Shown here: positions 24,101 through 26,973 of the stretch, piece by piece
How the letters are laid out: every line of letters starts with the position of its first letter
How positions within the stretch are numbered: the stretch's first letter is position 1
NCBI RefSeq assembly: GCF_030013205.1
Contig: NZ_CP122648.1
DNA length: 64,000 bases
Source: Escherichia coli
Lineage (GTDB): Bacteria; Pseudomonadota; Gammaproteobacteria; Enterobacterales; Enterobacteriaceae
Reading direction: 5' to 3' (one strand)
Made by a program: the position numbers

Positions 24101-26973
24101 GTCTCGACACATGTAAAGCTCTATAATAAAAATGGCACAATGACAGATAAGGCAGTACCTTTTGACAACTATAGCACCAATTATCCAGCAGACAGAAGTA
24201 AACCATCAAGTTGGGCCTCAGGAACAGAAGGTTATATAAAAATCAGACTTGATAAAAAAATAATATCCGATATATCAATAAATAACGTATTGCTGGTTTC
24301 TTTGTATGTCAGCCAGTTTCCAACAGAGCACGGACCAATTCCAGTATTTAATGCTTATATTGGCAACTTAAATATTGAAGTTCCACAAGGTTGCACAATT
24401 AATGAGGGAACTAGTTTTACCGTTAATATGCCGGATGTCTGGGCCAGCGAATTAAGTCGGGCTGGTGCTGGAGTGAAGCCCACGGGCGTTTCTCCAGTGG
24501 CAACCACTATTCCGATAAACTGTACGAACAAAGATATTGATGCCGTAATGACGCTGGTTTTTGATGGCAATATTTCATCAACGAGAGATGTTAATGGTCG
24601 GCAAAGCATTATTCAGGCGGAGGATAACCCCGACGTTGGTATTATGATTATGGATAGCCAACAGGAATCCGTAGACTTGAACGCTCTTGCTGCGCATGTT
24701 GGTGTGCCATTTAAGTTAGTTGAAAACCGGGCTGAGTCAGCTCAGACGGCAGATGTGACTTTTCTGTCTCTCCCTGTAAGTACCACAGGGCGACGCCCTG
24801 CTGCGGGTCGTTATAATGCCCTGGCTGTTTTGCGGGTGGAATACCAGTGATGTGTGAGTCAGCGCAGAATCGGATTAGCCCGTTTTTAGCCATCGGTAGG
24901 GTAAAGTTTGATGGAAAATATGGGTTATGTGCCGATGTATCCCACAATGAAATAACCCTCGAGGGAAAGGAATCAGCGCGATGAACAAATTCACGGTGTT
25001 TTGCTGCTAGGTGTGGTATTTCTCGGCTTTATTATTGTACCGTTCTTGATATGGCCGACGGTGGTTGCGCTGGCTGCTTGTATTATTACGCTGAGTTTTC
25101 TGGGGAGATACTGTTCTCTATCCCGCTCATGATCAGGCATATTTCACTTCTGGAATTACAACTTTGGTTATCGGTTGTATATGCGCTTTGTCCATGCCGG
25201 ATGCGACGTGAACGTCTTATTGGCCTACAAAATCATGCAAATTCAATATATTGCATAAACCACGTAGGCCTGATAAGCGTAGCGCATCAGGCAGTTTTTT
25301 TGTTTATCATCAGTCTCAGGTCAGATTGAAATCTGACCTGACCACCTTACGTTAAATCACGAAGCCAGCGATAACCTCTGCTGCGTATACTCCACTAGCC
25401 ACTGACTCACACGAGATTGTTGATCCGCATTCAGCCACATGCCTTGTTTTGTGCGACGCCACAGGGCATCGTCGGCGCGACGGACCCATTCGTGATCCAC
25501 CAGATATTTCAGCTCCGCTTCGTAGAACTCATGACCGAAATCTTCCCCGAGATCGCCTATCGCCCCCGCATTGCCGAGCAGCAGTTCGCTGTTGCTGCCG
25601 TAAGTGCGTGCGTAATGACGTGCCAGCGATTCGGTCAGGAATGGGTAACGGCGGCGCAGGCGAGCGGCATAATCGTCGCGGTCGCCTTCAATGGCACCAC
25701 CCGGCAGCACGCTCTCTTTCGTCCACGCCGGACCAATGCCCTGATAATATGGCGTCAGTTTTTCCAGCGCGTGCTCCGCCAGTTTGCGGTAGGTCGTCAG
25801 CTTGCCGCCAAATACCGACAGCAGCGGGGCTTTGCCGTTTTCATCATGGATATCAAGCGTGTAATCACGAGTAATAGCCTGCGGCGAGTCGGACTCATCA
25901 TCACACAGCGGACGCACACCGGAGTAGGTCCAGACGATATCGTCCCGGCTTAACTGCTTTTTAAAGTGCGTGTTATACACTTTCAGCAGGTAATTGATTT
26001 CACTCTCTTCAATCTTCACTGCTTTTGGATCACCTTTGTATTCCACATCGGTGGTGCCGATGATGGAAAACTCGTCCATCCACGGGATCACGAAGACAAT
26101 ACGTTTATCTTCGTTTTGCAGAATGTAGGCCTGCTTTTGTGTATGCACGCGCGGCACCACAATATGGCTGCCTTTGATCAGGCGAATGCCATAAGGCGAA
26201 GGCAGATGCATCCCGTCGTCGAAGAACTGCTTTACCCACGGGCCGGTGGCGTTCACGAGGCCGCGCGCTTGCCAGCTATATTTTTTGCCGGTATCGATAT
26301 CTTCCGCTTCCACAATCCACAGGCCGTTTTCGCGGCGAGCAGAAGTGGCACGAGTCCGGGTAAGCACTTCACCGCCTTTACGCACCACCATCTGGGCGTT
26401 GGCGAGTACCAGACGGGCGTCGTCTACCCAACAGTCGGAATATTCGAATCCGCGCTTAATTTCCGGTTTTAACACTGAATTTGCGCCAAAACGCAAACCG
26501 GTTGATCCCGGCAGGCTGGTGCGTTTACCCAGATGATCGTACATAAACAGACCAATGCGAATCATCCACGCCGGGCGCAGATGCGGACGATGCGGCAGGC
26601 GAAAACGCATCGGGAAGGCGATATGCGGGGCCATTTTCAGCAGCACTTCACGTTCAGCCAGCGCCTCGCTGACCAGGCGGAATTCATAGTGCTCAAGGTA
26701 GCGTAGGCCACCGTGAATGAGTTTTGAACTGGCGGAGGAGGTCGCGCAAGCGAGATCCTGCGCCTCCAGCATCAGCACGGATAAACCGCGTCCAGCGGCG
26801 TCTGCCGCGATACCAGCACCATTGATGCCGCCACCTATCACAATCAGATCTTTGGTTTCCATGCTGCCCTCATTCACTTTCGTTAAAGCTCATAAATGTT
26901 CGTTATCGAACATATTAGCAAAGAATCGCGCTTTAGGTAACATTGAAAAAACATTTTAGAGTGATATGTATAA

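What the first reader, a model, noticed from the sequence alone, without database searches (positions are those of the whole stretch)
25196..25345. Cluster of REP/BIME palindromes and a perfect 11-bp inverted repeat beside the island boundary
Two REP-like elements (25196-25228 and 25264-25292, the latter followed by T7) and a perfect inverted repeat (25307-25330) lie between the island and the glpD 3' end. REP/BIME arrays are known sites of rearrangement and can act as terminators or mRNA stabilisers. Their position next to the inserted operon makes this a candidate junction or recombination site, and the second REP plus T-run could terminate read-through from the fimbrial operon toward glpD.
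Basis: partly seen in the sequence, partly recalled or inferred. Interest (0 to 1): 0.3.

Follow-up and report, generated by a model that had tools for sequence, protein, structure and literature searches.

The report
Ordinary BIME-1 repeat beside glpD
The two "REP-like" palindromes are the two arms of one ordinary, already-known E. coli repeat (a BIME-1 element) downstream of glpD; it belongs to the old chromosomal backbone and is not where the fimbrial island was inserted.

Summary
The sequence features are real. Window 25195-25293 is a single BIME-1 (RIP/RIB-type) element: a degenerate Y REP (25195-25228), the conserved L linker with an IHF-like core (25229-25263), and a consensus-perfect Z1 REP (25264-25293). 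A family-typical right flank follows, here carrying T7 (25295-25301). The "perfect inverted repeat" exists but lies at 25316-25341, with 12-nt arms and a 2-nt centre, 15 nt from the glpD stop codon.

K-12, O157 and two cryptic Escherichia species have the same BIME and palindrome at this spot without any fimbrial operon. About 44% of 5,426 complete E. coli genomes carry them; the rest have a canonical glpD terminator instead.

The fimbrial (auf-type) island spans about 18179-24898. Its right junction is 290-315 bp left of REP1, separated from it by decayed remnants of older genes. B2 strains carry auf at the same junctions on a backbone with no BIME, so the junction idea is refuted. One later 435-bp microhomology deletion does end inside the BIME's left flank.

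A terminator role for Z1 + T7 on the + strand is plausible but untested.

By-product: BIME-1 copies elsewhere are flanked by duplicated, locus-specific terminator hairpins, which suggests the glpD palindrome is a relic terminator stem.

The parts
18179..24898 (+). Context, not part of the element: the auf-type chaperone-usher fimbrial island (7 genes). It replaces most of a PstS-family gene that follows glgP in the O157-type arrangement.
   Evidence: Homology to O157-type loci ends at window 18178 and resumes at 24899-24905. The B2 auf locus L015 is about 75% identical across window 18056-24879 and has equivalent junctions. PGAP annotation of the 100%-identical strain is. The name auf for the glpD..glgP region comes from PMC12928451.
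24899..25189 (+). Decayed remnants of the pre-island gene cluster. Window 24899-25011 matches the end of PstS-like gene 1 and the start of gene 2. Window 25017-25189 matches the 5' part of a 200-aa hypothetical gene. They separate the island from the BIME.
   Evidence: blastn against L004, L003 and L005. PGAP calls window 24989-25203 a frameshifted, incomplete pseudogene.
25183..25194 (.). Truncated left flank motif of the BIME-1 (GCGCTTTGTCCA). Positions 25183-25189 (GCGCTTT) are the 7-bp microhomology at the junction of a 435-bp deletion (O157 locus L004 8566-9000).
   Evidence: Direct comparison of the window with the two L004 breakpoints. The full family left flank, TCAGATTGTTGACAAAGTGCGCTTTGTTCA, is seen in paralogs and in the K-12 and O157 alleles.
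25195..25228 (+). REP1: a Y-type REP in iREP orientation (3' CTAC). It is degenerate, with a 1-nt deletion and a G-C to A-T double change relative to the O157 allele.
25229..25263 (+). BIME-1 L linker. It has a small AT-rich hairpin and an IHF-like core, ATTCAATATATTG (25241-25253), which matches 12 of the 13 positions of WATCAANNNNTTR (consensus from memory). It matches Rfam RF02751 ES036 at 25229-25271.
   Evidence: Rfam hit of 43.6 bits against a gathering score of 37.6. The same family hits the linker of all three paralogous BIME-1 copies tested. The linker is conserved in alignment A1. Ton-Hoang et al. (PMC3333891) state that the L linker frequently carries an IHF site.
25264..25293 (+). 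REP2: a Z1-type REP with 5' GTAG on the + strand. It is identical to the consensus and invariant across all alleles and paralogs examined.
   Evidence: Hairpin energy is -12.9 kcal/mol on the + strand and -13.2 on the - strand.
25294..25317 (+). BIME-1 right flank motif (GTTTTTTTGTTTATCATCAGTCTC), including T7 at 25295-25301. The family consensus here is TTTTGCGTTTG.
   Evidence: Alignments A1 and A2. The repeated unit in other genomes spans window 25179/25182-25316/25317.
25316..25341 (-). Perfect palindrome TCAGGTCAGATT-GA-AATCTGACCTGA, 15 nt downstream of the glpD stop codon. It is locus-specific and abuts the BIME end, which supplies its outermost TC.
   Evidence: arms.: -19.8 kcal/mol with z -3.8 on the glpD-sense strand, and -17.0 on the + strand; one place per genome (at most two); rarity in the window. 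In K-12 and O157 the T-to-C change at arm position 6 gives G.U only on the minus strand.
25357..26862 (-). glpD (context). In the 56% of E. coli genomes that lack the BIME and palindrome, homology with the window ends at the stop codon, 25357-25359.

Best explanation
Window 25183-25317 is one copy, slightly truncated on its left, of the E. coli BIME-1 family, also called RIP or RIB. It consists of a Y REP, the long L linker with an IHF-type site, and an inverted Z1 REP, with the family's conserved outer flanks.

The element lies in the 3' region shared by glpD (minus strand) and whatever is transcribed convergently on the plus strand. It is an old resident of one of two major haplotypes of the glpD 3' flank. 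It was already there when the auf-type fimbrial operon replaced a PstS-like gene about 300 bp to its left.

How it probably works (inferred, not shown):
- Plus-strand read-through from the fimbrial operon folds the Z1 REP, or the whole Y/Z1 inverted pair, just ahead of U7. This makes an intrinsic-terminator-like signal that would limit antisense transcription into glpD.
- On the glpD mRNA, the 25316-25341 hairpin and the Z1 REP are stable 3' structures of the kind that block 3'-5' exonucleases. They lack a U-tract, so termination of glpD in this haplotype is probably Rho-dependent or occurs further downstream.
- On DNA, the L linker is a likely IHF site.

The palindrome is probably the original glpD terminator stem, left without its U-tract when the BIME-1 inserted next to it.
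For: Identity (shown):
- Z1 is an exact match, with 0 expected by chance.
- The Y REP, L linker, Z1 REP and both flanks align column by column with the copies at pitA/uspB, satP/mog and fepA/entD.
- Y plus Z1 separated by a long conserved linker, as a single copy, is the published definition of BIME-1 (PMC3333891; PMC1187871).
- Window 25182-25317 is repeated a median of 17 times per genome.

Backbone status (shown):
- The same element and palindrome are found in K-12, O157, MSB1_4I, MS14385 and Z0117EC0005, and in two other Escherichia species.
- They are present in 2,376 of 5,426 genomes, but the window-type auf allele is in only about 228-231.

Junction positions (shown).

Structures (computed).

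Literature on function: REPs act as partly Rho-dependent terminators and as mRNA stabilisers in 3'UTRs (bioRxiv 10.64898/2026.03.23.713779). [quoted passage not shown]

Relic-terminator reading:
- In the BIME-less haplotype a canonical hairpin plus U-rich tail sits at the same place after glpD.
- At other BIME-1 sites the element abuts locus-specific terminator hairpins.
- In the O157 allele the left flank reads AATCAAAAAGTAGG. Its complement is a U5 tract plus 4-5 nt of the stem.
Against: - No transcript data were available, so termination, stabilisation and IHF binding are all inferred.
- The simple terminator scan did not flag Z1 + T7, because the REP stem has a bulge.
- REP1 is degenerate and folds no better than shuffled sequence.
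- The T7 is not specific to island-bearing strains, so it was not shaped by the fimbrial operon.
- The palindrome shows no informative covariation. One variant fits the minus strand (G.U) and another, at the terminal pair, fits the plus strand.
- No empty-site allele of this haplotype was found that would prove the relic-terminator reconstruction.
Confidence: 0.85

Rival explanations
1. One reading: the REP cluster is the junction or recombination site through which the fimbrial island entered, for example by REP-mediated rearrangement.
For: Against K-12 alone, homology resumes at window 25182, only 13 nt left of REP1, which looks like a junction. A 435-bp deletion does end inside the BIME's left flank. 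BIMEs are enriched in strain-variable 'loops' (PMC1187871).
Against: - The apparent K-12 junction comes from two independent deletions: a 2.84-kb deletion in K-12 and a 435-bp deletion in the window lineage.
- Against the undeleted O157-type arrangement, the island ends at about 24898, and 290 bp of older gene remnants lie between it and REP1.
- The B2 auf allele has equivalent junctions on a BIME-less backbone.
- No REP occurs at either true junction. The only other Y or Z1 matches in the window are at 49041 and 58164.
- The deletion junction is a plain 7-bp microhomology, not a REP-REP exchange.
Confidence: 0.04
2. The linker encodes a genuine small RNA gene (Rfam ES036/CssrF), and the REPs are incidental.
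For: The Rfam hit is above the gathering score at 25229-25271 on the + strand.
Against: - The 43-nt model is simply the BIME-1 L linker plus the first 10 nt of the Z1 REP. It hits every paralogous BIME-1 tested, so the match reports repeat membership, not a gene.
- No promoter-like site was found in 24600-25600.
- The model's outer pairs are broken here.
- No paper on ES036 or CssrF could be found.
Confidence: 0.07
3. The 25316-25341 palindrome is a DNA operator for a dimeric regulator rather than an RNA hairpin or terminator relic.
For: It is a perfect 12-nt dyad with a 2-nt centre, it is locus-specific, and it is rare by chance.
Against: - It lies between the 3' ends of convergent genes, with no promoter-like site nearby.
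- It occupies the same position as the canonical glpD terminator hairpin of the alternative haplotype.
- It abuts a BIME-1 end just as terminator hairpins do at other loci.
- It bears no resemblance to the GlpR operator consensus as I remember it (memory only, not tested).
Confidence: 0.05

Closest known systems
BIME-1 (also called RIP, repetitive IHF-binding palindromic element, or RIB, reiterative ihf BIME) of E. coli
   Same: One Y REP and one Z1 REP in inverse orientation, separated by the long, conserved L linker with an IHF-type core. It is single-copy, not tandem. It lies between the 3' ends of convergent transcription units. It is about 140-150 bp long including flanks. It is polymorphic between strains in presence or absence.
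   Different: The left outer flank is cut back to 12 nt by a lineage-specific deletion. The Y REP is decayed. The U-rich right flank is sharpened to T7.
REP-type 3'UTR terminator/stabiliser elements (for example REP325 in yjdMN; REP stabilisers of malE-malF)
   Same: Stable REP hairpins in a 3' untranslated region. The literature assigns such elements partial, often Rho-dependent, termination and protection from 3' exonucleases.
   Different: No functional data exist for this copy. Here a U7 tract directly follows the Z1 stem on one strand, so it resembles an intrinsic terminator more than most REPs do.
Canonical intrinsic terminator of glpD in the BIME-less haplotype (GCCCGGTTG-loop-CAACCGGGC + UAUUUGG)
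   Same: A hairpin at the same distance range after the glpD stop codon: 8 nt there against 15 nt here.
   Different: The window's palindrome is unrelated in sequence and is followed on the glpD-sense strand by GAGACUGAUGAUAAAC, not by a U-tract. The BIME-1 occupies the place where the tract would be.
REPIN / RAYT system (REP doublets mobilised by TnpA-REP, YafM in E. coli)
   Same: A BIME-1 is a REP doublet forming a long hairpin: -38.8 kcal/mol, z -4.6. The GTAG/CTAC feet required by TnpA-REP are present.
   Different: No RAYT gene is involved locally. IS200/IS605-type transposition is described as making no target duplications, whereas BIME-1 copies here are often flanked by duplicated target hairpins.

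Membership tests
REP, Z1 type | About 30-nt imperfect palindrome with a GTAG foot, matching the Z1 consensus | tested here: met
   Window 25264-25292 matches the 29-nt consensus with 0 mismatches, 0 expected by chance (the consensus itself is from memory but is reproduced by all paralogs). GTAG lies at 25264-25267. The hairpin is -12.9/-13.2 kcal/mol.
REP, Y type | About 35-nt imperfect palindrome with a CTAC/GTAG foot, matching the Y consensus | tested here: inconclusive
   Window 25195-25228 aligns in register with consensus Y REPs and keeps CTAC. However, it differs from the consensus by more than 3 positions, including a 1-nt deletion, and its hairpin is not better than shuffles (z -0.85). 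It is a decayed member.
BIME-1 | One Y and one Z1 REP in inverse orientation | tested here: met
   (inverted repeat I2). Definition from PMC3333891 and PMC1187871.
BIME-1 | Long, well-conserved L linker between the REPs | tested here: met
   The 35-nt linker 25229-25263 is conserved across four loci. It matches the Rfam ES036 model, which equals the L motif.
BIME-1 | Occurs as a single unit, not as tandem copies | tested here: met
   Only one Y/Z1 pair lies in 25100-25420.
RIP/RIB (IHF-binding BIME-1) | IHF binds the linker | not testable with these tools
   Sequence only: ATTCAATATATTG at 25241-25253 fits WATCAANNNNTTR at 12 of 13 positions (consensus from memory). [quoted passage not shown]
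Intrinsic (Rho-independent) terminator, + strand | Stable G+C-rich stem-loop followed within a few nt by a U-tract | tested here: met
   The Z1 stem (7+3 bp, -12.9 kcal/mol) ends at 25292. AG follows, then U7 at 25295-25301 and GUUU. The consensus scan missed it because of the bulge.
Intrinsic (Rho-independent) terminator, + strand | Transcripts actually end there | not testable with these tools
   No 3'-end data were accessible. The supplements of two Term-seq papers are not held.
Genomic-island junction / REP-mediated recombination site | The boundary between island-specific and backbone DNA coincides with the REPs | tested here: not met
   The right junction is at about 24880-24905, 290-315 bp from REP1. 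Backbone remnants lie in between. auf occurs without any BIME in B2 strains.
Rfam RF02751 ES036 (CssrF) sRNA | Score at or above the gathering threshold | tested here: met
   43.6 bits against 37.6. The model coincides with repeated BIME-1 DNA, so membership says nothing about a gene at this site.

The most novel reading that the evidence does not exclude
BIME-1 elements (REP doublets) insert next to intrinsic-terminator hairpins and duplicate the whole target hairpin (about 20-25 bp). The result is A-run, hairpin copy 1, the ~150-bp element, hairpin copy 2, T-run. The 25316-25341 palindrome would then be the surviving copy of glpD's original terminator stem, cut off from its U-tract.

If this has not already been described (the 1997 Genetics paper by Bachellier et al. 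could not be read here), it would be a sequence footprint of the still-unknown in vivo insertion mechanism of REP/REPIN elements. That footprint differs from the duplication-free insertion of IS200/IS605 relatives.
Probability: 0.3. Interest if true: 0.55.

Novelty: already known. Interest (0 to 1): 0.18.

Why it matters
The finding as given matters little. It is a textbook BIME-1 in a known position; K-12 has the same copy.

It is useful mainly as a correction. The apparent coincidence of island edge and REPs seen against K-12 is an artefact of two independent deletions. The glgP-glpD spacer turns out to be a decaying accessory locus with at least four haplotypes.

It also shows that the Rfam family ES036 is just the BIME-1 linker.

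The side observation could matter more. BIME-1 copies are bracketed by duplicated terminator hairpins, and how REP doublets insert in vivo is still described as unknown in 2026.

Tried and rejected
- The K-12 RefSeq record lists no REP features in this interval, so annotation could not confirm the REPs.
- The simple terminator scan found nothing at the REPs, and one probably chance site inside the last fimbrial gene.
- Literature searches for ES036 and CssrF returned only unrelated papers.
- A search for glpD plus REP literature gave nothing specific.
- The supplements of two Term-seq papers are not held, so no 3'-end data for glpD or glgP could be read.
- Bachellier et al. 1997 (PMC1207841) and Gilson et al. 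1991 (PMC333889) are not held. I therefore could not check whether flank duplications, or the outer 'A/B' motifs I recall, are already described.
- The genome-contig scan for the palindrome found only two Escherichia loci, both with the BIME, plus unrelated Firmicutes hits. No empty-site allele turned up.
- Strain BS-04 (L008) shows an odd, poly-T-ridden version of the spacer. I treated it as low-quality or highly diverged sequence and did not use it.
- The idea that T7 evolved as the auf terminator was rejected, because T7 also occurs in auf-less strains.
- The 92-aa ORF at 25051-25329 was rejected as a gene. It runs from a gene remnant across the deletion junction into the BIME, and PGAP calls the region a pseudogene.
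Full report
**1. What is in the sequence**

The window is E. coli and is 100% identical to strain CFSAN018748 across the region.

On the + strand the order is:
- glgA and glgP (glgP stop at 18167-18169);
- a seven-gene chaperone-usher operon;
- a short non-coding stretch;
- glpD on the minus strand, with its stop codon at 25357-25359.

Within the flagged interval:

| Feature | Coordinates | Note |
|---|---|---|
| REP1 | 25195-25228 | Y type |
| Linker | 25229-25263 | 35 nt |
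| REP2 | 25264-25293 | Z1 type |
| T7 | 25295-25301 | |
| Palindrome | 25316-25327 / 25330-25341 | perfect 12-nt arms |

- Its inverted repeat is misplaced by about 10 nt and is 12 nt, not 11.
- None of this is chance. REP2 matches the 29-nt Z1 consensus exactly, with none expected in shuffles.
- Perfect hairpin repeats of at least 12 nt occur at four places in the window, against 0.07 expected per simulated window.

**2. What it is**

REP1 and REP2 are inverted relative to each other.

I aligned the region with copies between pitA/uspB, satP/mog and fepA/entD, and with the K-12 and O157 glpD alleles. The whole stretch is one repeated unit of about 150 bp:
- left flank TCAGATTGTTGACAAAGTGCGCTTTGTTCA;
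- Y REP;
- conserved linker, containing AATTCAATATATTG;
- Z1 REP;
- right flank GTTTTGCGTTTGTCATCAGTCTC.

This is the published definition of a BIME-1. It has Y plus Z1 separated by a long, well-conserved L linker that often carries an IHF site, and it occurs as a single copy (PMC3333891; about 140 bp according to PMC1187871).

- Window 25182-25317 recurs a median of 17 times per genome.
- The Rfam hit to ES036/CssrF at 25229-25271 is above threshold. However, the 43-nt model is just the L linker plus the start of Z1, and it hits all three paralogous BIME-1 copies tested. It therefore marks repeat membership, not an sRNA gene.
- REP1 is a decayed Y REP. It has a 1-nt deletion and its own fold is no better than shuffles.
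- REP2 is invariant in every allele and paralog examined.

**3. Where the island really ends**

Against K-12 alone, homology resumes at 25182, 13 nt before REP1. That would seem to support the junction idea. K-12 is a deletion allele, though.

O157:H7 and several other strains carry, between glgP and glpD, two PstS-family genes and a 200-aa hypothetical gene, then the BIME-1, the palindrome and glpD.

Measured against that arrangement:

| Window | O157 locus (L004) | Meaning |
|---|---|---|
| up to 18178 | up to 5716 | end of homology on the left |
| 24899-25011 | 7284-7397 | remnant of older genes |
| 25017-25189 | 8392-8565 | remnant of older genes |
| 25183 onward | 9001 onward | BIME and glpD flank |

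- The fimbrial island is therefore about 18179-24898, and its right junction lies 290-315 bp from REP1.
- The gap L004 8566-9000 is a separate 435-bp deletion. It formed at a 7-bp microhomology (GCGCTTT, window 25183-25189) that cuts into the BIME's left flank.
- K-12 has its own 2.84-kb deletion (L004 6057-8900), which leaves yzgL.
- The island is an auf-type operon. The B2 strain NRG 857C has a 75-77% identical seven-gene operon with equivalent junctions. The literature names the glpD..glgP region of B2 strains as auf (PMC12928451).
- In B2 strains auf sits on a backbone with three hypothetical genes and no BIME.

The island and the BIME are therefore independent.

**4. Population picture**

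- Of 5,426 complete genomes, 2,376 have the BIME and palindrome next to glpD.
- In the rest, homology with the window stops exactly at the glpD stop codon. There a 53-bp spacer holds a canonical terminator, GCCCGGTTG...CAACCGGGC followed by UAUUUGG on the glpD-sense strand (-23 kcal/mol).
- The window-type auf allele is in about 228-231 genomes, and the B2 allele in about 550.
- Two other Escherichia species also have the BIME and palindrome at glpD, so the insertion is old.
- The T7 is not private to island-bearing strains. MS14385 and MSB1_4I, which lack auf, have T7. Z0117EC0005 has T6. K-12 and O157 have TTTTGTG.

**5. How it probably works**

All of this is inferred.

Plus strand:
- The Z1 REP folds at -12.9 kcal/mol.
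- The whole Y/Z1 pair folds into a 99-nt hairpin (-38.8 kcal/mol, z -4.6) that ends 2 nt before U7.
- This is intrinsic-terminator-like. It is the first such signal downstream of the last fimbrial gene.

Minus strand (glpD mRNA):
- The palindrome folds at -19.8 kcal/mol (z -3.8), 15 nt after the stop codon.
- It is followed by the Z1 hairpin, with no U-tract after either.
- REPs have been shown to act as partly Rho-dependent terminators and as stabilisers (bioRxiv 10.64898/2026.03.23.713779).

No transcript data could be accessed.

**6. The palindrome and a by-product**

At pitA/uspB the BIME-1 is present in 1,940 genomes and absent in the others.
- The empty site is a single bidirectional terminator: AAAA-CGAGCGGGTCAGTTTACTGGCCCGC-T7.
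- The filled site has a hairpin copy, then the 151-bp element, then a second hairpin copy followed by T7.

At satP/mog the pattern is the same, with a 20-bp hairpin. It is filled in 467 genomes.

A metagenome scan gave 79 usable BIME-1 copies at 18 distinct sites:
- In 8 sites the 35 bp outside the two ends share a locus-specific direct repeat. Scores were 11-18, against a mismatched-locus null with mean 5.3 and 99th percentile 9.
- Seven of the eight repeats are terminator-type hairpins; the eighth (L129, where the element's left end was probably mis-set) is not.
- Left copies are usually preceded by A-runs and right copies followed by T-runs.
- One further site (L049), not among those 18, has a perfect 22-bp repeat.
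- Three sites, including glpD, have a strong hairpin only at the right end. fepA/entD has none.

At glpD, the O157 allele reads ...AATCAAAAAGTAGG|TCAGATTG... on the left. Its complement gives ACUUUUUGAUU after a stem remnant. The reconstructed pre-insertion site folds as a 9-bp hairpin followed by U5.

I therefore read the 25316-25341 palindrome as the surviving stem of glpD's original terminator.
- The BIME-1 separated it from its U-tract.
- In the window that tract was later lost with the 435-bp deletion.
- No empty allele was found to prove this.

I could not establish whether the hairpin duplication is already described. Ton-Hoang et al. do not mention it. A 2026 preprint calls the insertion mechanism unresolved. 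Bachellier et al. 1997 was not readable.

**7. Verdict**

- The identification as REP/BIME is right.
- The junction interpretation is refuted.
- The terminator interpretation is plausible but untested.
- The element is an already-known kind, and indeed a known copy.
- Interest is low. The hairpin-duplication pattern around BIME-1 elements is the one item worth a follow-up.

Noticed in passing
L009 1452-1694 vs L016 281-390 (pitA/uspB); L010 1430-1680 vs L025 181-262 (satP/mog); metagenome loci L026-L145: BIME-1 insertions are bracketed by direct repeats of a locus-specific terminator hairpin of about 20-25 bp. Two filled-versus-empty comparisons show it. So do 8 of 18 distinct sites, whose flank repeats score above the 99th percentile of a mismatched-locus null; 7 of the 8 repeats are terminator-type hairpins. 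Left copies are usually preceded by A-runs and right copies followed by T-runs, so the target looks like a bidirectional terminator.
   Followed up: partly
window 18179-24898: The 'island' is an auf-type chaperone-usher operon: major subunit, chaperone, usher, two minor subunits, second chaperone, adhesin. It is only 75-77% identical in DNA to the B2 auf allele but has equivalent junctions. About 228-231 genomes, including EAEC 042, carry this allele and about 550 carry the B2 allele.
   Followed up: partly
window 18170-25360 and loci L001, L004, L007, L015: The glgP-glpD spacer has at least four haplotypes: the O157 type with two PstS-family genes plus a hypothetical gene; the K-12 2.84-kb deletion; the majority type with a PstS-like gene, usually followed by three hypothetical genes (L006 has only two); and auf replacements on two different backbones. 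K-12 yzgL lies wholly within the K-12-specific segment left by that deletion, so it looks like a deletion remnant (EcoCyc's 'solute-binding homology' note is from memory).
   Followed up: partly
window 25051-25329 (+): The 92-aa ORF is an artefact. It starts in a gene remnant, crosses the 435-bp deletion junction and reads through both REPs. PGAP annotates window 24989-25203 as a frameshifted pseudogene.
   Followed up: yes
window 25229-25271; L009 1555-1595; L010 1549-1591; L011 1550-1591: Rfam family RF02751 (ES036/CssrF 'sRNA') is in effect a model of the BIME-1 L linker plus the first bases of the Z1 REP. It will hit BIME-1 copies genome-wide.
   Followed up: yes
window 48988-49110: A perfect 15-bp-stem bidirectional terminator (AAAAGTGCCGGAGA...TCTCCGGCACTTTT) is followed immediately by a decayed, truncated BIME-1: a Y REP at 49041-49074, a shortened linker, and only GTAGGCC of the Z1 REP. 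This is another case of a BIME-1 abutting a terminator hairpin.
   Followed up: no
window 58164-58192 (-): A solitary Z1-like REP with 3 mismatches to the consensus.
   Followed up: no
window 1317-1381 (+): RyhB sRNA gene (Rfam RF00057, 83 bits).
   Followed up: no
L006 9652-10438 (strain AR_0081): In this strain rtcR and rtcA are truncated and rtcB is missing: a deletion in the rtc RNA-repair locus just beyond glpR.
   Followed up: no
L008 5560-6030 (strain BS-04): An aberrant glgP-glpD spacer with long poly-T runs and a heavily garbled REP-like sequence. It is probably an assembly or sequencing artefact and was not used.
   Followed up: no
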